In this document: piece after piece, positions 2,968-58,580 of the stretch
Layout: every line of letters starts with the position of its first letter
Position numbering within the stretch: the first letter of the stretch is position 1
Made by a program: the position numbers and the translations under genes
Source: Syntrophomonadaceae bacterium
GTDB taxonomy: Bacteria; Bacillota; Syntrophomonadia; Syntrophomonadales; DTU052
NCBI GenBank assembly: GCA_012729505.1
Contig: JAAYDA010000072.1
Coordinates: forward strand, 76,162-140,161
Length of the DNA: 64,000 nt
Direction of reading: 5' to 3'
Notes under the pieces: model-generated
What the model was told of the DNA's origin: nothing
The model's input: only the letters and a program-made list of their open reading frames with translations
The model's database searches: none

Positions 2968-3066
2968 AATTGCTCACCTCGGTTTCCATTTTGCTATCTT
3001 TAATGGATTAAAAGCCGGTGAACCACCAGGCGGGTTCTTAGAAAGTCCTTAATTATGTAAGCTTAT

Positions 3067-3202
3067 TTATCCGATAACTAATCTGCCCTAAGACCCCCCG
3101 CCTCTATAGGCGGCGGGTGCCCAAGGGCAGTTAAGTCCCTGGATCCGTGCGACTAAGATTCAGATGGAGTCAAAACTTCACCTGAATCAAGTCTTACTTT
3201 AT
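3067..3202 (+). repeat. Dispersed structured intergenic repeat, copy a (full length, consensus orientation on the plus strand)
   Basis: TTATCCGATAACTAATCTGCCCTAAGACCCCCCGCCTCTATAGGCGGCGGGTGCCCAAGGGCAGTTAAGTCCCTGGATCCGTGCGACTAAGATTCAGATGGAGTCAAAACTTCACCTGAATCAAGTCTTACTTTAT. The sequence is near-identical to 13485-13620 and 58447-58580 (reverse complement) and to 6481-6582. Confidence 0.85.
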
Positions 3203-3211
3203 CCGCCGCCA

Positions 3212-6480: not shown

Positions 6481-6582
6481 TTATCCGATGACTAATCTGC
6501 CCTTGGGCAGTTAAGTCCCTGGATCCGTGCGACTAAGATTCTGATGGAGTCAAAACTCCACCTGAATCAAGTCTTATTTTAT
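6481..6582 (+). repeat. Dispersed structured intergenic repeat, copy b (short variant lacking the internal GC hairpin)
   Basis: TTATCCGATGACTAATCTGCCCTTGGGCAGTTAAGTCCCTGGATCCGTGCGACTAAGATTCTGATGGAGTCAAAACTCCACCTGAATCAAGTCTTATTTTAT. It matches copies a, c and d except that about 34 nt (TAAGACCCCCGCCTCTATAGGCGGCGGGTGCC) are absent. Confidence 0.85.
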
Positions 6583-13484: not shown

Positions 13485-13620
13485 ATAAAGTAAGACTTGA
13501 ATCAGGTGGAGTTTTGACTCCATCTAATTCTTAGTCGCACGGATCCAGGGACTTAACTGCCCTTGGGCACCCGCCGCCTATAGAGGCGGGGGTCTTTAGG
13601 GCAGATTAGTCATCGGATGA
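13485..13620 (-). repeat. Dispersed structured intergenic repeat, copy c (consensus orientation on the minus strand)
   Basis: The reverse complement is near-identical to copy a, including the internal CCGCC-TCTATA-GGCGG hairpin. Confidence 0.85.
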
Positions 13621-13764
13621 ACTCCCGGCCGACTTTGATACTGTATATTATACGTGTTTGACCTCTATTACTTCAATTGTTTGATTATAGATGCCCTCCG
13701 GTCACAACCCGCTTTCTCAATTCACTTTCATTTTTCGGTTTTGCCCTTGGCAGCAGACTTTTTG

Positions 13765-20269: not shown

Positions 20270-21865
20270 TCAGGAGGGATTTGCATTCATAAACCGTACC
20301 AAAAAACCGGTTCCATTGGGTCCGGTGTCGATGTCTATTTTGGCATTGTGCCGATTGGCAATACTGTAGCATATGGCCAGACCCAAACCCGTTCCACTAT
20401 CTTTAGTGGTAAAAAAGGGAGTGCCTATTTTATCAGCTATAGCCGGGTCTATTCCTTTGCCCTCATCTTGTACCGCTAAAACAACTTCATCTTCTTCAAC
20501 ATATGTTTTTATGGTTAAGATACATTTCGTATCCATTGCTTCAATACCATTTCTGACCAGGTTTAAAATTACTTGCCGTATTTCACCTTGATCCATTAGC
20601 ATGTCGGGAATCTCCCCTAATAATATCTTTAATTCCATGCCTTCCTTGAGGGCGGCGGAACGTAATAAAGGCTCCATGGAAATGATAATATCGTTTAAAT
20701 TTAACAGGGTTTTTTCCACGATTTTGCTTTTAGCCATATTCAAAAACTCTGTAATTATTGAATTTGCCCGGTCAAGCTCTTCGATCATTAAATTAAAAAG
20801 CTCGCCTTCCTGCTTAAACTCCTCACGGGTACCCATAAGCTGCAAGAATCCCCGTACCGTAGTCATAGGATTCCTGATTTCATGACCTATTCCGGCAGCA
20901 ATTTCCCCTACCATATGCAATCTGTCTACCCGTGCCATTTCTTTCTCAATTTCTTTATCGGAGGTAATGTCCTCTGATACTCGCAAATAACTGGTTAACT
21001 GTTCGTTATCAAATATCGGTATTATGGAAACCATTTCCGAGATGACTTCTCCGTCCTTGCGAATCGATTCAAATTCCCCGCTCCATTCATTAGTCTCCGC
21101 AACTTTTTTTAGTATGTCTTCGATTTCCTGCATATAGGCAGGATTGAGAAAATACATGGGTTTACCTTGGGCATCTGCCCTTTGGTATCCGGTGATATCA
21201 CCGAATTTCTTGTTTACATATTCAATAATTCCGTTTTTATCGGTTATCATCACCAGGCTGGGGCTCTGTTCGACCGCACAGGTAAGCCGATAAAGACTTT
21301 TTATATTATTCTTCAAAGCATTTCTGGATAGTCTCTCCATTTCTACAGTATTGCCGATATACCAGCCCGTAACTAAAATGATGCCGATAAAAACCAGATT
21401 ACTTTCTATTATGTTAGCCACCGGCATAGCCGGATAAATTATTTTCTGATGTGATATCTGAATTATTACACAGGCAATAGCTGTTATGAGACCGCCTCGC
21501 AGCCCCAAGGATGAAGCCGCAAAAAGCACCGGAAGAATCAGGGCCAGGGAAAAAAAAGTGGAATCATGGCGTGATAAAAAAATAGCAACAATAGTAACTG
21601 CCATTAAGATCACAATATAAACGATATTGTTAAATAACGAGTACTCATTATCTTTCATGATATAGGTGTTAAAGTAGATCGATACAATTACTACCCCAAC
21701 AAAAACAGCAATTATATATCCCCTCAAGCCGTATGCTGGAAAAATGTCTCCGGTAAAATCATTGCTTAACACTAAACCCAAACCTAGAATGAACATGCTT
21801 ATAAAATGAGCCAGTTCCAGAGTGTCATAGGTCTTTTGTTCATATTTCTTGTCTAATCTGTTCAT
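20270..21865 (-). CDS. Orphan sensor histidine kinase: about 6 TM segments, PAS, HisKA and HATPase, with a sporulation-kinase-like H-box
   Basis: The ORF-track frame 20270-21985 is trimmed to ATG at 21865 (MNRLDKKYEQ...). The upstream 120 nt are occupied by agrD and a terminator hairpin. The H-box is GIGHEIRNPMTTVRGFLQLM, and DEGKGI and GTGLGLAI motifs are present. No response regulator is adjacent. Confidence 0.8.
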   Translation of the reverse strand: MNRLDKKYEQKTYDTLELAHFISMFILGLGLVLSNDFTGDIFPAYGLRGYIIAVFVGVVIVSIYFNTYIMKDNEYSLFNNIVYIVILMAVTIVAIFLSRHDSTFFSLALILPVLFAASSLGLRGGLITAIACVIIQISHQKIIYPAMPVANIIESNLVFIGIILVTGWYIGNTVEMERLSRNALKNNIKSLYRLTCAVEQSPSLVMITDKNGIIEYVNKKFGDITGYQRADAQGKPMYFLNPAYMQEIEDILKKVAETNEWSGEFESIRKDGEVISEMVSIIPIFDNEQLTSYLRVSEDITSDKEIEKEMARVDRLHMVGEIAAGIGHEIRNPMTTVRGFLQLMGTREEFKQEGELFNLMIEELDRANSIITEFLNMAKSKIVEKTLLNLNDIIISMEPLLRSAALKEGMELKILLGEIPDMLMDQGEIRQVILNLVRNGIEAMDTKCILTIKTYVEEDEVVLAVQDEGKGIDPAIADKIGTPFFTTKDSGTGLGLAICYSIANRHNAKIDIDTGPNGTGFLVRFMNANPS

Positions 21866-21880
21866 CTTCGGCCTCTTGAT

Positions 21881-21904
21881 AAAAGGTGGGCGAACCCACC
21901 TTTT
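21881..21904 (-). terminator. Hairpin terminator immediately after agrD
   Basis: AAAAGGTGGG-TTCG-CCCACCTTTT is a perfect 10-bp stem with a tetraloop, flanked by A and T runs. It starts 5 nt after the agrD stop codon. Confidence 0.7.
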
Positions 21905-21908
21905 ATCC

Positions 21909-22040
21909 TTACTTTCTAAGGGTTGGCGGAACTTCTGGCTGATATGCTGATACTGCGCAGGCACTGGCGGAAAACACTTGTGCAAAAAGGGTTAGCAGCA
22001 TAATGGCTAATGCAAGCAGCTTAGGAGTCATTTTTCTCAT
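21909..22040 (-). CDS. agrD: AgrD-like cyclic autoinducing-peptide precursor (43 aa), absent from the ORF track
   Basis: Hand translation gives MRKMTPKLLALAIMLLTLFAQVFSASACAVSAYQPEVPPTLRK. GGAGG lies 8 nt upstream of the ATG. The ORF overlaps the last 20 nt of agrB in another frame. It has a single Cys, and the Cys-to-Pro spacing (10 residues) and the EVP motif match S. aureus AgrD-I (YSTCDFIMDEVEVP). Confidence 0.75.
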   Translation of the reverse strand: MRKMTPKLLALAIMLLTLFAQVFSASACAVSAYQPEVPPTLRK

Positions 22041-22686
22041 CCTGTTCACCTCCTTTATTTAATTTACCTACAAACAACAGGTCAATTTGCTGCAGGGCTT
22101 TAAAGCCCATCTTATGCACCAGGAAGCTTACCCACAGCACACTAAGGCCTGTGACCGCCTGTATTTCGTAATTTAACTGCAGCTGCATTACAACCGCCGC
22201 TAAAAACAGTATCAGAGTTATGATAATGGATAGTATCTTCAGCCTTTTTCTTCTTAAATCGGAAACGATGGGGGCTTTGTGATTTTCCGCCGGGGCCAGG
22301 TAAAGCATGGTCAACAGGCCGATCAATAAAGAAGCATAGGCAAATATAGGAGTAAAGCCACCCAATGACCGGGCAAGCAGCTTGCCGGTTATGGCTATGA
22401 TCGGAAAGATTGAAATGGTAATTACCGAACAGCAGTATACTGATTCACTATGGGCGCCTCCGGCAGTATGCCGGTAAGCGAAGACAATCAAGCAACTGAT
22501 AATAGTGCCGGTCACTACTCCCAGCAGCCAGCCCACCAAAATGGCCAAGGCCACATTCAGAATATTAAGAGCCAGCATATCAAGGGCATAGGCCAGCACC
22601 AGCCGCGTTTCCTCATTGCTATTGGTTTTTTCCGCTAAGTAACCTGCAATACGGCTGCTGATCATGGAATAGCTCAAACACTCCAC
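22021..22686 (-). CDS. agrB: AgrB-family membrane peptidase (AgrD processing and export); start codon uncertain (GTG 22686 or ATG 22665)
   Basis: 221-aa polytopic ORF containing FAYRHTAGGAHSESVYCCSV. This corresponds to the conserved R-H-x-A-x-G-x-H...C catalytic His/Cys region of AgrB. Confidence 0.8.
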   Translation of the reverse strand: MECLSYSMISSRIAGYLAEKTNSNEETRLVLAYALDMLALNILNVALAILVGWLLGVVTGTIISCLIVFAYRHTAGGAHSESVYCCSVITISIFPIIAITGKLLARSLGGFTPIFAYASLLIGLLTMLYLAPAENHKAPIVSDLRRKRLKILSIIITLILFLAAVVMQLQLNYEIQAVTGLSVLWVSFLVHKMGFKALQQIDLLFVGKLNKGGEQDEKNDS

Positions 22687-30062: not shown

Positions 30063-30154
30063 TCATTTCAATGGGTGCAGTTTGCCTGCTATCTGCTTTT
30101 CGATCTCTCCTGCCATCCACACGTCCCCCGGGCGACTTAAGTGGCAATGATCAC
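30063..30154 (-). pseudogene. Relic 3' fragment of a paralog of the SGNH-like gene at 32314-33249
   Basis: Coordinates 30084-30154 match 32323-32393 at 66 of 71 positions. The fragment translates on the minus strand as ..DHCHLSRPGDVWMAGEIEKQIAGKLHPLK*, compared with CDHCHLSRPGAVWMVREIEKQIAGRV* in the intact gene. No upstream coding continuation exists. Confidence 0.7.
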
Positions 30155-32313: not shown

Positions 32314-33249
32314 CTATACTCTGCCTGCTATCTGCTTTTCGATCTCTCTTACCATCCACACGGCCCCCGGTCGGCTTAAGTGGCAATGATCACAGTAGTT
32401 GCTGTGTTCTCTGGTAAAGAACTCGTACTCTGGGGTATTAAAGTCCCAGACATAGTCGCTACTGTCAAACAGGGGATCGAGATCCTGGTGCATTTCCTCA
32501 TAAAACTCACGTTTCTGGTCATAGATCTCATATGGACGCGGGTAATAGTAGGCAAAAACCTTGATTTCGTTTGCGTGAGCCAAATCAATAATGGCTTTCA
32601 AGTCCTTTTTAGCCTGTTCCGTTACCTTGAACTGATCAGTTCCCCACTTACGGCTCTTGGTCAGAGCCGCAGCAATGGCCTGCTCCACGTCCTGCTTGTC
32701 TTTATACCGGTTAAAGTCGTAGTGCCCATATTCATTGTAGTAATTCCTGGTCCCCCGGTATTGATTTACGATCTTATCGTAATAATAGCGGTATAAATCT
32801 ACCGAACCCAGCGCACTCCAATAATCCTTTCGGCTGAGATAGCTGGTCTTTCGCCCCGAATCCTTGGTCAGGTAGGGGTCCAGACAGATGATGAAGAACT
32901 TGACCTTTCGATTGTGAGCAACTATGCTTTCTGCCATAATTCTCAATTCTGTGAAATTGCCGCCGTTGATCGAGGCATTGTAGACTTTCAAGTTCTCGAA
33001 TAGTGCCGGATCAAGGTTGTCAGCCAGTGAAGGTCCCCAAATCACGCCTTCGAAATTGGCGGGGATGTAGTTATAGGTGTATAGATACTTGGCCCAACGC
33101 TCCCAGTCCCGGGAGACCGGTTCCCTTTTCAACCCCGCAGCATCCCCTATCAGGGCAAACTCATTCACATAGCTGGTGAACAGCACTATTAATAACAACC
33201 CGAAGACGGTTATTATCATGGATCTAGTTAAAAATTGCTTAAAAGTCAT
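32314..33249 (-). CDS. SGNH/GDSL-like protein with an N-terminal TM anchor, putative partner of the MBOAT acyltransferase
   Basis: 311-aa ORF overlapping the MBOAT gene by 11 nt. Candidate SGNH blocks are WGPSLADN (Ser), NASINGGN (Gly/Asn) and CDHCH (DxxH). The family assignment is an inference. Confidence 0.5.
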   Translation of the reverse strand: MTFKQFLTRSMIITVFGLLLIVLFTSYVNEFALIGDAAGLKREPVSRDWERWAKYLYTYNYIPANFEGVIWGPSLADNLDPALFENLKVYNASINGGNFTELRIMAESIVAHNRKVKFFIICLDPYLTKDSGRKTSYLSRKDYWSALGSVDLYRYYYDKIVNQYRGTRNYYNEYGHYDFNRYKDKQDVEQAIAAALTKSRKWGTDQFKVTEQAKKDLKAIIDLAHANEIKVFAYYYPRPYEIYDQKREFYEEMHQDLDPLFDSSDYVWDFNTPEYEFFTREHSNYCDHCHLSRPGAVWMVREIEKQIAGRV

Positions 33250-36732: not shown

Positions 36733-36984
36733 TAAAAAACCTCCTCATAATTGCCCATTCCTGGGGAAGCAGCTGTTCTCTTACTTCCCTAGCCGAGGCG
36801 ATCGAGAAGGGCTAACATCAGTCCACAAGCATGGAACATATAGCTATTTTAGTTTATATCAAAGGAAAAAGCAAATATTTAGTTTGATTTTTCCCAGCCG
36901 GCCACCAATTAATACTTGCTGTTAAAATATTATATAAATTGAAATCTTGCCCTTAACTTATGCCAAGCGAACTTTACACCAATG

Positions 36985-37327
36985 TCAATGTTCAGGGAAA
37001 GTGTCATGTCAGGACTAGCAGGAGGCACAAATAATTTAGCAGAGATTTAGCTCCCGGATTCGGCACGGGATGAATTCCAGCGTAGTGACCGTAGGGATGA
37101 GAACCGAGCAAACACCTGCGAAGGTGAGGCAGAAGAGCAGCCGAGGGACAGGAGGTCCCAAGTCCGCCTCCTGAGCCATGGAGGGCGAATTGGCGGTGTG
37201 CTGCTCGGATGCCGAACTTGAGCTAGTTGTATTTGCCGGTTCTCATTCCGGGAGCAAGTGGAATTCATCCCGTGTCTCCGCACCCAACTTCAGAATTGTT
37301 GGGATGACATTATCGCTGATTAACAAC
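36985..37327. mobile_element. Non-coding composite element with terminal inverted repeats (MITE-like), copy 1, with a 211-bp core bounded by inverted repeats (37064-37274)
   Basis: The left end is TCAGGGAAAGTGTCAT (36992-37007). The core is bounded by a perfect 16-bp inverted repeat, CACGGGATGAATTCCA at 37064-37079 and 37259-37274. The right end is ATGACAT at 37304-37310. About 90 percent identical to 50536-50908, with the arms swapped and inverted. Confidence 0.8.
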
Positions 37328-37367
37328 AGCAAGCTTTACTTCAGGAGCCCGCCCTCGAAAAATATCG

Positions 37368-50424: not shown

Positions 50425-50535
50425 TGTCACCAGCGCATCATCCTCAAGGAGGCAGATCAGCAACCAGTCCGGGAGAATATTGCACTCCATTTTACATCAT
50501 ATGCACGATAATACAATACACTGCACGAAAAACAT

Positions 50536-50908
50536 GTTGTTAATCAGCGATAATGTCATGGTATTACTCATCAGGGAAAATGTCATCCCGACAATTCGGA
50601 ATTTGGGTGCGAGACACGGGATGAATTCCAGCGTAGCGACCGTGGGGATGAGAACCGAGCAAACCTCTGCAAAGGTGAGGCAAAAGAGCAGCCGAAGGAC
50701 AGGATGTCCTGAGTCCGCCTCCTGAGCCATGGAGGGCGAATTGGCGGTGTGCTGCTCGGAGGCCGAACCTGAGCAGTTGTTTTTGCCGGTTCTCATTCCG
50801 GGAGCAAGTGGAATTCAATCCGGGTCGAATCCGGGAATCAAATCTCTGCTAAAGTATTTGTGTCTCCCACTAGTCCTAACATGACATTTTCCCTGACCAT
50901 GACAAACA
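50536..50908. mobile_element. Non-coding composite element with terminal inverted repeats, copy 2 (core 50615-50824)
   Basis: The terminal inverted repeats are TCAGGGAAAATGTCAT (50571-50586) and ATGACATTTTCCCTGA (50881-50896). The core is in the same plus-strand orientation as copy 1, but the flanking arms are the reverse complement of the copy 1 arms. Confidence 0.8.
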
Positions 50909-50941
50909 CAGCACTAATAGCAACGTTATGTGTACACATTC

Positions 50942-52759
50942 CTACTCCACAGTCACTGATTTGGCTAGATTTCTGGGTTTATCAACATCACAGCCCCGGG
51001 CAACAGCAATATTATAGGCCAGAAGCTGCAAAGGCACTACTGACACCAGGGGCGAAAATATGGATTTCACCACCGGGATTAGAATTACTTCGTCACATTC
51101 CCGGATGGTTTCGGTCATATCCCGTTTGGTTACTCCGATTATCGTCCCTTTACGGGCCTTAACTTCTTTGATGTTGGACATCATTTTGTCCTCCAAGTCT
51201 TCCTGGGTGATCAGAGATATAACCGGCACCCCTTCTTCAATCAGGGCTAACGTCCCATGCTTCAGCTCCCCGGCCGCATATGCTTCAGCATGAATATAAG
51301 ATATCTCCTTTAATTTCAAAGCACCCTCCAGGACCAGCATGTAGTCCAGGCCCCGTCCCAAAAAGAACGCGCTGGAAGCTTGACTATACTTGTCAGCAAT
51401 TGCTTCAACGGAGCTGACATCCTCCAGGAATTCTTCAATTTTCTCCGGAATCGCCGCCAAATCTTGAACCATATCCTCAATAGCCGCTGAATCCATCACA
51501 TTTCTGCGTTCAGCCAAAAAGATGGCCAGCATATACATGATCAGCAGCTGAGTAGAGTATGCCTTGGTGGAGGCCACCGAGATTTCCGGGCCGGCCCAGG
51601 TATGGATAACTGCGTCAGACTCGCGGGCCACCGAGCTTCCCACCACATTGGTCACCGCCAGGACCTTGATCCCTTTCCTCTTAGCTTCCCTTAGGACCGC
51701 CAAGGTATCGGCAGTCTCTCCGGATTGACTGACTACGATCAGAATGGAATCCTGGGGCCACAAAACCTCCCGGTAGCGAAATTCGGAAGCAATATCTACT
51801 TCAACCGGAATTTTGGCCAGTTTTTCAATCAGGTGCTTACCGACCATACCCGCATGATAAGCAGTGCCACAAGCTACGATAAATATTTTGCTGACCCGAT
51901 CCAGGAATTTATCCAGTTTCAGCTCCGAGAAGTCCACCCGGTTGTCCACGATTCGTCCCCGCATAGTATCCCTCAAAGCTCGGGGTTGTTCATTAATTTC
52001 CTTTATCATAAAATGCGGATATCCATTTTTCTCAGCCTGATGCGGGTCCCAGTCCACCAGGAAAACCTCCTTGGTGATCCCATTGCCCTTGGCGTTTAAT
52101 AGGCTAACTCCCTCCGAAGTCAAGACGGCCATTTCTCCATCATCTAAAATATAGAATTTATTAGTGCGGCTTAATACCGCCGGGATATCCGAAGCCAGAA
52201 AGTATTCTCCCTCACCTAAGCCAACTACCAGCGGACTATCCTTGCGAACCGCTACAATTTTATGAGGATCCTTCCGGCTGACTACCGCCAAAGCATAGGA
52301 ACCCTGCAAATGTCCGACTACTTCCTGTACCGCTGTCAGCAAATTCCCCCGAAAACAATCTTCAACCAAATGAGCCAGAACTTCGGTATCGGTCTGGGAT
52401 GTAAAAGTATGACCTTTCTCTATCAATCTCTGGCGAAGGCGAGCATAGTTTTCAATTATACCATTGTGGATCACTGCAAAGTCCCGGCTACAGTCTACAT
52501 GGGGATGAGCATTTTCATCACTGGGCACACCATGAGTAGCCCAGCGAGTGTGTCCTATGCCAATATTGGAATAAGGAGCATCCTCCAGGTGCTCCTCCAG
52601 TATAGCTAATCGGCCTTCTTTTTTTTGAAACCACAGCTTCTCTTCGGCGAGAACTGCCACTCCGGCTGAATCATAACCTCTGTATTCCAGTTTCCTTAAT
52701 CCCGCAATAATTTCCGGGATAGCATCCCGGTTGCCTATATACCCAATTATTCCGCACAA
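50942..52759 (-). CDS. glmS: Glutamine--fructose-6-phosphate aminotransferase
   Basis: The ORF-track frame 50942-52972 is trimmed to TTG at 52759, with GGAGGA 9 nt upstream. The protein then begins (M)CGIIGYIG, giving the obligatory N-terminal Cys nucleophile. The sequence upstream is the glmS ribozyme. Confidence 0.9.
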   Translation of the reverse strand: MCGIIGYIGNRDAIPEIIAGLRKLEYRGYDSAGVAVLAEEKLWFQKKEGRLAILEEHLEDAPYSNIGIGHTRWATHGVPSDENAHPHVDCSRDFAVIHNGIIENYARLRQRLIEKGHTFTSQTDTEVLAHLVEDCFRGNLLTAVQEVVGHLQGSYALAVVSRKDPHKIVAVRKDSPLVVGLGEGEYFLASDIPAVLSRTNKFYILDDGEMAVLTSEGVSLLNAKGNGITKEVFLVDWDPHQAEKNGYPHFMIKEINEQPRALRDTMRGRIVDNRVDFSELKLDKFLDRVSKIFIVACGTAYHAGMVGKHLIEKLAKIPVEVDIASEFRYREVLWPQDSILIVVSQSGETADTLAVLREAKRKGIKVLAVTNVVGSSVARESDAVIHTWAGPEISVASTKAYSTQLLIMYMLAIFLAERRNVMDSAAIEDMVQDLAAIPEKIEEFLEDVSSVEAIADKYSQASSAFFLGRGLDYMLVLEGALKLKEISYIHAEAYAAGELKHGTLALIEEGVPVISLITQEDLEDKMMSNIKEVKARKGTIIGVTKRDMTETIRECDEVILIPVVKSIFSPLVSVVPLQLLAYNIAVARGCDVDKPRNLAKSVTVE

Positions 52760-52782
52760 CTTGTTTATTCCTCCTAACAATA

Positions 52783-52940
52783 GCCAGAAGCCGCACCCTT
52801 TGTCTCCTCCATTACCGGAGGTTTTTGCAGAGCGGCTAACGATGCCGGCACACCGTGGGGCATCCGCCGATAATTCGATAAACCCCACCCTCGTCAACCT
52901 ATCAATATAAGCCATTTCTGATAGGTCCAGGCGCTTGCTT
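52783..52940 (-). ncRNA. glmS: glmS ribozyme (glucosamine-6-phosphate activated self-cleaving riboswitch)
   Basis: The minus strand reads AGCGCCTGGAC...GGTTGACGAGGGTGGGGTTTATCGAATTATCGGCGGATGCCCCACGG...GCCGGC.... This matches the B. subtilis core AGCGCCAGAAC...GTTGACGAGGAGGAGGTTTATCGAATTTTCGGCGGATGCCTCCCGG. The boundaries are approximate. Confidence 0.85.
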
Positions 52941-52980
52941 TGTTGAGCAATAGTCAATATTCTACTGCCCAACCCAGATT

Positions 52981-58407: not shown

Positions 58408-58446
58408 AGAACCCCCCCTTTTTAAAGGAACCCGATCTGAAAGAAG

Positions 58447-58580
58447 ATAAAGTAAGACTTGATTCAGGTGGAGTTTTGACTCCATCTGAATCTTAGTCGC
58501 ACGGATCCAGGGACTTAACTGCCTTTGGGCACCCGCCGCCTATAGAGCGGGGGTCTTAGGGCAGATTAGTCATCGGATCA
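58447..58580 (-). repeat. Dispersed structured intergenic repeat, copy d (consensus orientation on the minus strand)
   Basis: The reverse complement is near-identical to copies a and c. It lies between the cimA stop codon and the multi-PAS gene start. Confidence 0.85.

What the first reader, a model, noticed from the sequence alone, without database searches (positions are those of the whole stretch)
50615..50824. The 211-bp core is flipped relative to the element arms between the two copies (inverton-like configuration)
On the plus strand, copy 1 reads armA, core, then armB. Here armA is ...TTTAGCAGAGATTTAGCTCCCGGATTCGGCACGGG and armB is CCCGTGTCTCCGCACCCAACTTCAGAATTGTTGGG. Copy 2 reads the reverse complement of armB (CCCGACAATTCGGAATTTGGGTGCGAGACACGGG), then the core in the same plus-strand orientation, then the reverse complement of armA (...CCGGGTCGAATCCGGGAATCAAATCTCTGCTAAAG). 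When the two copies are oriented by their arms and terminal repeats, the core is therefore inverted.

The core is bounded by inverted repeats. In copy 1 they are a perfect 16-bp pair, CACGGGATGAATTCCA (37064-37079 and 37259-37274). In copy 2 they match at 13 of 16 positions. The segment shared by all four junctions is TGAATTCCA and its complement, which contains a GAATTC palindrome.

This is the footprint expected from DNA inversion between inverted repeats, either by a site-specific invertase or by homologous recombination. The alternative explanation is a small MITE nested at the identical site in both orientations, which seems less likely.
Basis: seen in the sequence. Interest (0 to 1): 0.72.

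Follow-up and report, generated by a model that had tools for sequence, protein, structure and literature searches.

The report
Flipped RNA-like hairpin inside a MITE
The two repeats are old copies of a small non-coding mobile element whose body is a 210-base hairpin found about 20 times in this bacterium's genome; in one copy the hairpin was turned around once, long ago, and nothing indicates a working genetic switch.

Summary
The 211-bp core (37064-37274 and 50615-50824) is a direct repeat. Its flanking arms are inverted. The core is bounded by a 16-bp inverted repeat.

The inverton reading is not supported:
- The core is one member of a dispersed family: 18 distinct copies, 11 of them without these arms. 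Every locus whose neighbouring protein was looked up (9) belongs to the window's own Syntrophomonadaceae MAG.
- The core is a long hairpin with an almost invariant apex carrying two GGAG-containing loops. Its stems covary, and G-U pairs favour the + strand.
- The "16-bp inverted repeat" is the basal helix of this hairpin. Its sequence changes between copies with compensation, so it is not a conserved recombinase site.
- The arms are the ends of a 346-370 bp MITE with 5'-TGT...ACA-3' termini, roughly 25-bp imperfect inverted ends and 16-17-bp target duplications. This is the signature of the ISTde1 subgroup of the IS1202 family.
- Five of six arm-bearing copies have the copy-2 arrangement. Only window copy 1 is flipped.
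- Each locus is identical and in one orientation in 4-5 independent assemblies. The flipped junction was absent from JGI contigs. No recombinase domain was found in the window.

The flip is best explained as a single ancient inversion across the hairpin's own basal repeat. The apex resembles the orphan TwoAYGGAY RNA motif but fails its Rfam model.

The parts
36966..36982 (.). Left flanking direct repeat (decayed target-site duplication) of MITE copy 1: AGCGAACTTTACACCAA
   Evidence: Matches the right flank at 12/17 when read as a 17-mer. Matched-flank alignment score is 8, against 3-7 for mismatched-flank controls. Boundary uncertain by 1 nt.
36983..37063 (+). Arm A of MITE copy 1. Starts 5'-TGTCAATG... 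and includes the inverted-end motif CAGGGAAAGTGTCAT (36993-37007).
   Evidence: Inverted relative to 50825-50904, 86% identical. End motif located.
37064..37274 (+). Core, copy 1: 211-nt hairpin element, + strand being the structured strand. Its orientation relative to the arms is opposite to that of all five other arm-bearing copies.
   Evidence: MFE -112 kcal/mol, z -8.7. Covariance model 247.7 bits on +, 34 bits on -. Stems covary.
37064..37079 (+).
   Evidence: Pairs perfectly with 37259-37274. Helix 1 has 7 of 11 pairs with compensatory changes across 15 copies.
37259..37274 (+). 3' half of the basal helix (TGGAATTCATCCCGTG)
   Evidence: The five copy-2-type arm-bearing copies whose 3' terminus is covered (W50615, L019, L020, L021, L022) carry divergent 3' termini instead: TGGAATTCAATCCG[G/A][G/A] in the first four, TGGAATTCACCCGGGG in L022.
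37145..37159 (+). Apical hairpin 1, GGGAC-AGGAG-GUCCC (GGA/SD-like loop)
   Evidence: Closing pair covaries A-U in 8 copies and G-C in 6. Loop invariant.
37164..37196 (+). Apical hairpin 2, CCGCC..GCC-AUGGAG-GGC..GGCGG (second GGA loop, at 37178-37183)
   Evidence: Its 8 paired positions, the apical loop and the 3' internal loop are invariant in all 15 aligned copies; three copies differ in the 5' internal loop (ATT for TCCT). Aligns with hairpin 2 of the TwoAYGGAY consensus.
37275..37328 (+). Arm B of MITE copy 1. Ends ...ATGACATTATCGCTGATTAACAACA-3'.
   Evidence: Inverted relative to 50535-50614. Outer 25 nt are 100% identical. Lacks a 27-bp internal unit that copy 2 has.
37329..37345 (.). 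Right flanking direct repeat of MITE copy 1
   Evidence: Boundary uncertain by 1 nt.
50518..50534 (.). Left flanking direct repeat of MITE copy 2: ACACTGCACGAAAAACA
   Evidence: 13/17 match to 50906-50922.
50535..50614 (-). Arm B of MITE copy 2 (reverse complement). Starts 5'-TGTTGTTAATCAGCGATAATGTCAT, followed by a second internal copy of the end motif, CAGGGAAAATGTCAT, at 50572-50586.
50615..50824 (+). Core, copy 2 (210 nt), in the majority orientation relative to the arms
   Evidence: 92-93% identical to copy 1. 248.3 bits on the + strand. MFE -104.9 kcal/mol, z -6.7.
50825..50904 (-). Arm A of MITE copy 2 (reverse complement). Ends ...ATGACATTTTCCCTGACCATGACA-3'.
50906..50922 (.). Right flanking direct repeat of MITE copy 2: ACACAGCACTAATAGCA

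Best explanation
Both window copies are old insertions of a non-autonomous transposon (a MITE of 346 and 370 bp).

Arms. The arms are the transposon ends. They have 5'-TGT...ACA-3' termini and roughly 25-bp imperfect inverted ends. They are flanked by 16-17-bp target duplications. This is the signature of the ISTde1 subgroup of the IS1202 family, so a transposase supplied in trans presumably moved them.

Core. The body of the MITE is a hairpin of about 210 nt. It belongs to a lineage-specific, roughly 20-copy family. It has a long covarying stem containing two tandem G.A motifs. The stem is capped by a nearly invariant three-way junction. The two hairpin loops of that junction read (C)AGGAG and AUGGAG. 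This design resembles the orphan TwoAYGGAY RNA motif. Selection appears to act on the + strand as RNA, possibly because the loops bind a GGA-recognising protein such as CsrA. That function is inferred, not shown.

The 16-bp repeat.

The flip. The arms-plus-core composite multiplied as a unit in the copy-2 arrangement. In the lineage of copy 1 the body was turned over once. Either recombination or replication template-switching between the two halves of the basal helix could have done this, and the same event made that helix perfect. The result is fixed and is not a regulated switch.

Shown: the anatomy, the family, the covariation, the target duplications, the fixed orientation. Inferred: the inversion mechanism, the source of the transposase, and any RNA function.
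For: Family and independence of the core:
- 21 related loci were recovered, giving 18 distinct copies.
- 11 copies have no arm motif within 400 nt.
- Neighbouring proteins carry accessions NLV15594-NLV17840. This is the same Syntrophomonadaceae MAG series as the window's NLV17635-49.

Structure:
- 63 pairs; 97.1% of cells are paired.
- 18 pairs show compensatory changes, against 8.0 +/- 1.8 in shuffles (0 of 500 reach the observed value) and at most 7 in the slid controls.
- G.U pairs fill 66 cells against 11 for A.C.
- The apex is near-invariant.

MITE:
- Flanking direct repeats: 17/17 (L019), 16/17 (L014/L020), 11/12 (L021), 13/17 (copy 2), 12/17 (copy 1). Controls score 3-7.
- Termini are TGT...ACA.
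- The ISTde1 subgroup makes 16-17-bp repeats, has ends starting TGT, and occurs in Firmicutes (bioRxiv 10.1101/2022.12.17.520857).

Orientation:
- 5 of 6 arm-bearing copies have the copy-2 arrangement.
- Copy 1's core groups with the composite cores at 90-93.5% identity (against 81-87% to arm-less copies). It shares derived states with them, to the exclusion of L021, at alignment columns 51, 63 and 83. It does so to the exclusion of L021 and L014/L020 at columns 180-181.
- Arm identities broadly agree: arm A of copy 1 is closest to copy 2, at 86%.
- The breakpoints lie inside the 16-bp repeat.
- On the arm-A side of copy 1, 4 substitutions clustered within 8 nt make the repeat perfect.

No switching:
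- Searches show fixed orientation and no flipped junction.
- No recombinase domain was found.
- A relative MAG, about 83-87% identical in flanking genes, lacks the element at the two orthologous loci that can be read through (locus 1 and the L031 locus). At the L024 locus its contig ends about 180 nt past the homology without a core.
Against: - The position of copy 1 inside the copy-2 clade is only moderately supported. Five to six scattered sites favour nesting. Three clustered sites in the 3' terminal repeat (columns 220, 221, 225) and column 42 place copy 1 outside.
- Different segments give partly conflicting groupings. This suggests gene conversion among copies.
- A simple crossover within TGAATTCCA does not by itself yield copy 1's perfect repeat. 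Extra conversion must be assumed.
- No autonomous IS with matching ends was found.
- No expression data exist. Promoter-like and terminator-like sites are no commoner than chance.
- The resemblance to TwoAYGGAY fails the Rfam threshold: 16.3 bits against 43. It was not reproduced on a divergent copy.
- Consensus assemblies cannot exclude low-frequency inversion in the population.
- The sample of loci was retrieved by similarity to the core, so arm-only elements could have been missed.
Confidence: 0.6

Rival explanations
1. Independent nesting. The hairpin core is itself mobile, or is reshuffled by recombination among repeat modules. It entered an arms-only MITE twice, at the same position, once in each orientation. 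Alternatively, it was replaced by ectopic conversion from another core aligned in antiparallel.
For: - The core is an independent unit found in many other contexts. It is bounded by its own duplications at some sites: a 17-20-bp direct repeat around L023 and a 36-bp perfect repeat around L030.
- It is absent from the orthologous sites of a relative that can be read through (the L024 comparison stops at a contig end).
- Repeat modules in this genome are clearly mosaic. An arm-A-like hairpin lies inside the L022 core and downstream of the L018 cores.
- Copy 1 has its own perfect terminal helix, whereas the copy-2-type composites with a readable 3' end carry divergent ones (four share AATCCGRR, L022 differs).
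Against: - No arm-only element occurs in about 116 kb of non-redundant sequence.
- Arm/core boundaries are identical to the nucleotide in both arrangements, yet arm-less copies show no common target sequence.
- Copy 1's core and arms are each closest to those of copy-2-type composites.
Confidence: 0.27
2. Live invertible switch (inverton). A serine or tyrosine invertase encoded elsewhere flips the core between the 16-bp repeats, changing which strand of the core is transcribed from an arm promoter.
For: - Inverted repeats bound the segment, and both arrangements exist within the family.
- A weak sigma-70-like site in arm A (37006-37035, + strand) points into the core in copy 1. In the copy-2 arrangement it would read the opposite strand of the core.
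Against: - One fixed orientation was seen at locus 1 in 5 assemblies and at locus 2 in 4.
- The flipped junction has no match in JGI contigs.
- All loci sampled in several metagenomes keep one orientation.
- The repeat sequence is not conserved across the family.
- No recombinase domain is encoded in the window.
- Promoter-like sites are no more frequent than in shuffles.
- The two cores differ by 7-8%, and both target duplications are decayed, so these are old, static copies.
Confidence: 0.04
3. Assembly artefact. The assembler traversed a repeat-bounded hairpin in the wrong orientation.
For: Contigs often end inside the element (L010-L012, L014, L015, L020, L028, L039). This shows the repeat does disturb assembly.
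Against: - The bounding repeat is only 16 bp, shorter than the k-mers used.
- Five assemblies of locus 1 made with different assemblers (JGI, SPAdes NODE_, MEGAHIT k141_) are 100% identical. Locus 2 is identical in three and 99.8% identical in a fourth, partial contig.
- Contig breaks coincide with the 36-nt stretch that is identical in both copies.
Confidence: 0.01

Closest known systems
TwoAYGGAY RNA motif (Rfam RF01731; Weinberg et al. 2010, PMC2864571)
   Same: - A long, variable closing stem capped by a three-way junction with two hairpins whose loops carry GGA. Hairpin 2, GCC-AUGGAG-GGC, compares with the consensus GCC-aUGGAu-GGC.
- An AAGU linker between the two hairpins.
- Two tandem G.A motifs in the stem.
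- Many copies per genome, intergenic, with no fixed gene partner.
- Reported in Clostridia.
- In two of the three Rfam searches run over copy 1's core (501-nt and 211-nt stretches) the motif was not listed and then was the highest in bits, with a full-length alignment; on a divergent copy it was not listed either.
   Different: - Scores 16.3 bits against the gathering score of 43. The hit is not reproduced on copy L027b.
- Loop 1 is AGGAG, lacking the Y. Both loops end in G rather than Y.
- The apex sequence occurs in none of 185,579 species-representative genomes as an exact 20-mer.
- Here it is carried inside MITE shells.
MITEs derived from the ISTde1 subgroup of the IS1202 family
   Same: - 16-17-bp flanking direct repeats.
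- Termini begin 5'-TGT.
- Imperfect terminal inverted repeats.
- The subgroup is reported in Firmicutes.
- Small, non-coding and multi-copy.
   Different: - No transposase and no full-length parent IS was found.
- The end logos of the subgroup could not be compared with these ends.
- The body is a conserved structured hairpin rather than remnant IS sequence.
Invertons / phase-variable DNA inversion switches (for example fimS; PhaseFinder-type invertons)
   Same: A segment bounded by short inverted repeats that is found in both orientations relative to its flanks.
   Different: - The two orientations occur at different loci, not at one locus.
- The repeats are part of a covarying hairpin stem.
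- No invertase is nearby.
- No heterogeneity is seen among assemblies.
RNA-structured intergenic repeats and mosaic repeats (ERIC, Correia/NEMIS, Bacillus cereus bcr1, E. coli BIMEs) - comparison from general knowledge
   Same: - Dispersed intergenic imperfect palindromes.
- Modular, mosaic combinations of hairpin units in varying orientations.
- Evidence of selection on the folded strand.
   Different: - No sequence relationship.
- This family has a strongly conserved branched apex and is much longer than REP- or Correia-type units.

Membership tests
Inverton (phase-variable invertible DNA segment) | Segment bounded by inverted repeats | tested here: met
   16/16 in copy 1 and 13/16 in copy 2.
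Inverton (phase-variable invertible DNA segment) | Both orientations present at the same locus within a population | tested here: not met
   Locus 1 is identical in 5 assemblies and locus 2 in 4. The flipped junction gives 0 hits in JGI contigs. Raw reads could not be examined.
Inverton (phase-variable invertible DNA segment) | Site-specific invertase (serine or tyrosine recombinase), usually nearby | tested here: not met
   No recombinase or transposase domain in the 49 window ORFs of 110 aa or more scanned against Pfam, nor in the precomputed annotations covering the other 4. The rest of the genome was not searched.
Inverton (phase-variable invertible DNA segment) | Inverted-repeat sequence conserved as a recombination site across family members | tested here: not met
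   7 of the 11 basal-helix pairs change on both sides between copies.
Inverton (phase-variable invertible DNA segment) | Invertible segment carries or faces a promoter or coding switch | tested here: inconclusive
   There is one weak promoter-like site in arm A. The counts do not exceed those of shuffles.
TwoAYGGAY RNA (RF01731) | Score at or above the Rfam gathering threshold (43 bits) | tested here: not met
   16.3 bits, E = 5.4, full-length alignment for copy 1. No hit for L027b. No hit at gathering level.
TwoAYGGAY RNA (RF01731) | Two terminal loops with AYGGAY | tested here: not met
   The loops are AGGAG and AUGGAG. GGA is present in both, but Y is missing in loop 1 and the final Y is G in both.
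TwoAYGGAY RNA (RF01731) | Long closing P1 stem and tandem G.A pairs in the stem | tested here: met
   About 41 stem pairs lie below the junction. GA opposite GA occurs at alignment columns 63-64/163-164 and 69-70/157-158.
MITE of the IS1202 family, ISTde1 subgroup | 16-17-bp target-site duplication | tested here: met
   17/17, 16/17, 13/17 and 12/17, plus 11/12 over the part that can be aligned. Mismatched-flank controls score 3-7.
MITE of the IS1202 family, ISTde1 subgroup | Terminal inverted repeats beginning 5'-TGT | tested here: met
   The ends are TGTTGTTAATCAGCG... and TGTCAATG.../TGTCATGG.... Boundaries are uncertain by 1 nt in two copies.
MITE of the IS1202 family, ISTde1 subgroup | Matching autonomous IS with an IS1202-type DDE transposase in the genome | not testable with these tools
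MITE (general) | Small, non-coding, multi-copy, with terminal inverted repeats and target duplications | tested here: met
   346-370 bp; 6 arm-bearing copies; ORFs are not conserved between copies because of frameshifts.

The most novel reading that the evidence does not exclude
The core is an undescribed class of multi-copy structured RNA, a remote relative of the orphan TwoAYGGAY motif. Its two invariant GGAG-containing loops would bind CsrA or another GGA/SD-recognising factor. It would spread as the body of ISTde1-type MITEs. Its basal inverted repeat would let it flip at low frequency relative to a promoter in the MITE arm. Some copies would then express the sense RNA and others the antisense.
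Probability: 0.1. Interest if true: 0.6.

Novelty: new variant of a known kind. Interest (0 to 1): 0.33.

Why it matters
As a candidate phase-variation switch it does not hold up, so it should not be counted as an inverton.

What remains is of moderate interest for two reasons:
- It is a clear case of a strongly structured, apex-conserved hairpin forming the cargo of MITEs with the unusual 17-bp target duplication of ISTde1-type elements. This hairpin is built like the function-less TwoAYGGAY motif, for which CsrA binding has been proposed.
- It shows how such foldback bodies can be inverted through their own stem.

If the RNA is expressed, about 20 copies with two GGA loops each would be a sizeable protein- or ribosome-binding pool in a syntrophic Firmicute. 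No CsrA-antagonist RNAs are known in that group.

Tried and rejected
- Known RNA families. At gathering level Rfam found only the glmS ribozyme and one tRNA in the window. Permissive searches gave only sub-threshold hits.
- Twister ribozyme. A Twister-P5 hit of 13.7 bits rests on GGUCCCAAGUCC. Fourteen of the other 15 complete copies read CCUGAG, CCCGAG or UCGGAG there instead, so this was rejected.
- Coding potential. ORFs through the core differ by frameshift between the two copies, so this was rejected.
- Genome-wide exact 20-mer from the invariant apex. It gave 4 hits, all chance matches in GC-rich genomes.
- Six-frame concatenated pseudo-protein query.
- Viral contigs. No relatives.
- Large chromosomal inversion between the two copies as the cause of the flip. 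Worked through on paper: recombination between repeats of different copies leaves each element's internal arrangement unchanged, so this was rejected.
- Own promoter or terminator for the core. Counts do not exceed those of shuffles.
- Consistent orientation relative to neighbouring genes (a cis-regulatory role). None found.
- Literature search for 17-bp duplications. It gave nothing useful. The IS1202 lead came from memory and was then checked.

Full report
**Observation.**
- The core at 37064-37274 recurs at 50615-50824 on the same strand. The alignment covers 213 columns at 92% identity with one indel.
- The sequences on either side recur as reverse complements. Arm A (36983-37063) matches 50825-50904. 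Arm B (37275-37328) matches 50535-50614.
- The core is bounded by CACGGGATGAATTCCA and its complement. The pair is perfect in copy 1 and 13/16 in copy 2.
- It is not an assembly artefact. Locus 1 is 100% identical in five independent assemblies. Locus 2 is identical in three and 99.8% identical over the part covered by a fourth contig.

**What the core is.**
- It folds into one long imperfect hairpin. MFE is -112 kcal/mol for the + strand and -96 for the - strand, with z about -8.7.
- I used the spurious 78-aa ORF that crosses it as a probe against metagenome contigs. This recovered 21 loci.
- After removing the same locus seen in several samples, there are 18 distinct full or near-full copies and two degenerate ones.
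- Proteins encoded next to nine of these loci carry NCBI accessions NLV15594-NLV17840. All are named "Syntrophomonadaceae bacterium", the same series as the window's NLV17635-49. The tested loci therefore belong to one genome, that of the window.
- Fifteen complete copies were aligned (A1). An apex of about 80 nt is almost invariant, while the stems vary.
- The consensus structure has 63 pairs, with 97.1% of cells paired. Eighteen pairs carry compensatory double changes. Shuffles give 8.0 +/- 1.8 such pairs (0 of 500 reach 18), and structures slid by 1-3 columns give at most 7.
- G.U pairs outnumber A.C mismatches 66 cells to 11. A covariance model scores the + strand at about 248 bits and the - strand at 34-39 bits. 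The + strand is therefore the one under structural constraint.
- The apex is a three-way junction with two hairpins, GGGAC-AGGAG-GUCCC and GCC-AUGGAG-GGC. The stem below it carries two tandem G.A motifs.
- The copies are all intergenic. They show no consistent orientation towards neighbouring genes. Promoter-like and terminator-like sites are no more frequent than chance.

**Consequence for the 16-bp inverted repeat.**
- It is the basal helix of this hairpin.
- Other copies have different but still complementary sequences there. Examples are GCACGAGTTAATTCC/GGAATTAACTCGTGC and CACGTAATAGATTC/GAATCTATTACGTG. G.U pairs are also tolerated.
- A recombinase site would be conserved in sequence. This one is conserved in pairing.

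**What the arms are.**
- Six copies carry the arms: window copies 1 and 2, L014+L020 (two halves of one locus, 100% identical in their overlap), L019, L021, and a variant, L022.
- The end motif CAGGGAAAATGTCAT occurs only next to cores. It is never found alone in about 116 kb of non-redundant sequence.
- The full ends read 5'-TGTTGTTAATCAGCGATAATGTCAT... and 5'-TGTCAATGATCAGGAAAATGTCAT... on the complementary strand. That is TGT...ACA termini with imperfect inverted repeats of about 25 bp.
- Each copy is flanked by a direct repeat that abuts the ends:
  - L019: 17/17, TAACTATTTTAAAATAA.
  - L014/L020: 16/17.
  - L021: 11/12.
  - Window copy 2: 13/17.
  - Window copy 1: 12/17.
  - Mismatched left/right flank pairs, used as controls, score only 3-7.
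- A 16-17-bp duplication with TGT ends is the stated hallmark of the ISTde1 subgroup of the IS1202 family. That subgroup is reported in Firmicutes among other phyla (bioRxiv 10.1101/2022.12.17.520857).
- The composite is thus a MITE of 346 bp (36983-37328) and 370 bp (50535-50904).
- The decayed duplications of both window copies indicate old insertions.
- No transposase or recombinase domain was found in the window. Of the 53 ORFs of 110 aa or more, 49 were scanned against Pfam. The other 4 have precomputed annotations.

**The flip.**
- Oriented by the arms, five of the six arm-bearing copies have the copy-2 arrangement. Only window copy 1 has the other.
- Arm/core boundaries are at the same nucleotides in both arrangements. 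The switch of sequence occurs at the inner edge of the 16-bp repeat.
- Copy 1's core is 90-93.5% identical to the composite cores, against 81-87% to arm-less copies.
- It shares derived states with them to the exclusion of L021 at columns 51, 63 and 83. It does so to the exclusion of L021 and L014/L020 at columns 180-181. One of these states is half of a compensatory pair shared with L019.
- Its arms are closest to those of copy 2.
- Against nesting stand three clustered differences in the 3' terminal repeat, plus column 42.
- The most economical history has two steps. The composite arose once in the copy-2 arrangement and multiplied as a unit. Then the hairpin body was inverted once in copy 1's lineage, across its own basal repeat.
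- On the arm-A side of copy 1, four substitutions fall within 8 nt (GACCCGGATT to GGCACGGGAT) and make the repeat perfect. That is what conversion or template switching within a quasi-palindrome would produce. This step is inferred.
- I checked on paper that recombination between repeats of different copies cannot change an element's internal arrangement.

**No sign of a live switch.**
- Locus 1 (5 assemblies) and locus 2 (4 assemblies) each have one orientation. So do L016-18, L024-26, L033-34 and L014-15, which were sampled in several metagenomes.
- The junction expected from flipping locus 1 has no exact match in JGI metagenome contigs.
- Caveat: consensus assemblies would not reveal a minority orientation.

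**Mobility and age of the family.**
- A related MAG (GCA_012511475.1) is about 83-87% identical in the flanking genes. It lacks the element at locus 1, where 434 nt of the window are replaced by an HTH_3 + DUF2178 gene pair. It also lacks it at the L031 locus, where an empty site can be read. Its contig at the L024 locus ends 180 nt past the homology without a core.
- The model finds no core in 28 kb of that relative's sequence.
- An invariant apex 20-mer is absent from 185,579 species-representative genomes.
- Other copies sit in other shells. L023 has a short inverted-repeat shell with a 17-20-bp duplication. L030 is flanked by a 36-bp perfect duplication.
- Many copies are embedded in a mosaic of other hairpin modules.

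**Comparison with known families.**
- The only Rfam family that aligns end to end is TwoAYGGAY (RF01731). It scores 16.3 bits against a threshold of 43. The hit is lost on a divergent copy. Membership is therefore not met.
- The design nevertheless matches published descriptions and sequences. These describe a very long, variable P1, two GGA loops, an AAGU linker, tandem G.A pairs, many copies per genome and presence in Clostridia. The human-gut examples are themselves long foldbacks with outer inverted repeats.
- TwoAYGGAY has been proposed, without test, to sequester CsrA (PMC4333381). The same guess applies here and is equally untested.

**Verdict.**
- The inverton interpretation is not supported.
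- The parts are a hairpin repeat (TwoAYGGAY-like, a new variant) carried in an ISTde1-type MITE.
- The flip is a fixed, probably single, inversion mediated by the inverted repeat.

Noticed in passing
window 52780-52946 (-): A glmS ribozyme (110 bits, full length) lies directly upstream of glmS. The listed 676-aa ORF 50942-52972 over-extends through it. The annotated GlmS is 605 aa (NLV17648.1).
   Followed up: partly
window 3066-3203, 6498-6582, 13485-13621 (rc), 58446-58553 (rc); also L020 about 2140-2183 rc: A second dispersed intergenic repeat of about 135 nt, with copies 92-96% identical. It folds into two hairpins (MFE -57.5 kcal/mol, z -7.5). The copy at 6498 lacks the inner 34-nt G+C-rich hairpin, another case of nested hairpin modules. 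No Rfam match at gathering level.
   Followed up: partly
window 30083-30154 and 32322-32393: A 72-nt direct repeat, 93% identical and 2.2 kb apart, brackets a DUF6323 + DUF6179 gene pair. The second copy overlaps the 3' end of an SGNH-like ORF on the other strand. Not explained.
   Followed up: no
L030 about 1883-1918 and 2183-2218 (locus coordinates, core on the - strand): A 36-bp perfect direct repeat, TTCCTCGTTTCCTGTGTCGCGCCTTAAGGAAGTTCG, flanks a core unit (core plus 23-nt and 32-nt leaders). It is much longer than the 17-bp duplications of the arm-bearing MITEs. The mechanism is unknown.
   Followed up: partly
L023 about 1905-1924 and 2203-2222: This core sits in a different, much shorter inverted-repeat shell (ATCTGATGTTGATC...GATCAACATCAGAT). 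It is flanked by a 17-20-bp direct repeat, TT(G/T)TATTTATTTAGTTTTCA. Part of the shell resembles the arm-B end (GATGTTGATCAGCAATAAAAT against TGTTGTTGATCAGCGATAATGT).
   Followed up: partly
L018 1860-3400, L027, L030, L032, L033, L024, L029 flanks: Core copies are embedded in a mosaic of other short repeat modules. These include GTTCAGCGCTCCACGCTGAAC hairpins, GAGCACGAATCTCTTTAGGAGATTCGGCTCCCGCC hairpins (arm-A-like), CTGCTGAAGTAAACTTGTAAGGAATTAAGG, and GGCGTGAGGCG/CGCCTTTCGCC simple repeats. None of these modules occurs in the 64-kb window.
   Followed up: partly
L022 about 2208-2290 (within the core, locus coordinates): One arm-bearing copy has a 78-nt insertion in the 5' internal loop of the core. 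The insertion consists of an arm-A-like hairpin plus a GTTCAGCG...CGCTGAAC hairpin, and this copy has a different right arm.
   Followed up: no
L031 1670-1978: About 2.7 tandem copies of a 112-nt unit lie immediately beside the core. The related MAG has a single, diverged copy of the unit and no core.
   Followed up: partly
window 36933-37366 compared with L035 4620-5319: Between the acetyl-CoA hydrolase gene and the zinc-ribbon gene, the window's strain has the MITE. A related MAG has instead a 700-nt HTH_3 + DUF2178 two-gene cassette. Homology stops 1 nt after the hydrolase stop codon.
   Followed up: yes
window 22021-22686 (-) and 20270-21985 (-): An AgrB-like protein lies next to a PAS histidine kinase, a possible agr-type peptide signalling locus in a syntroph.
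   Followed up: no
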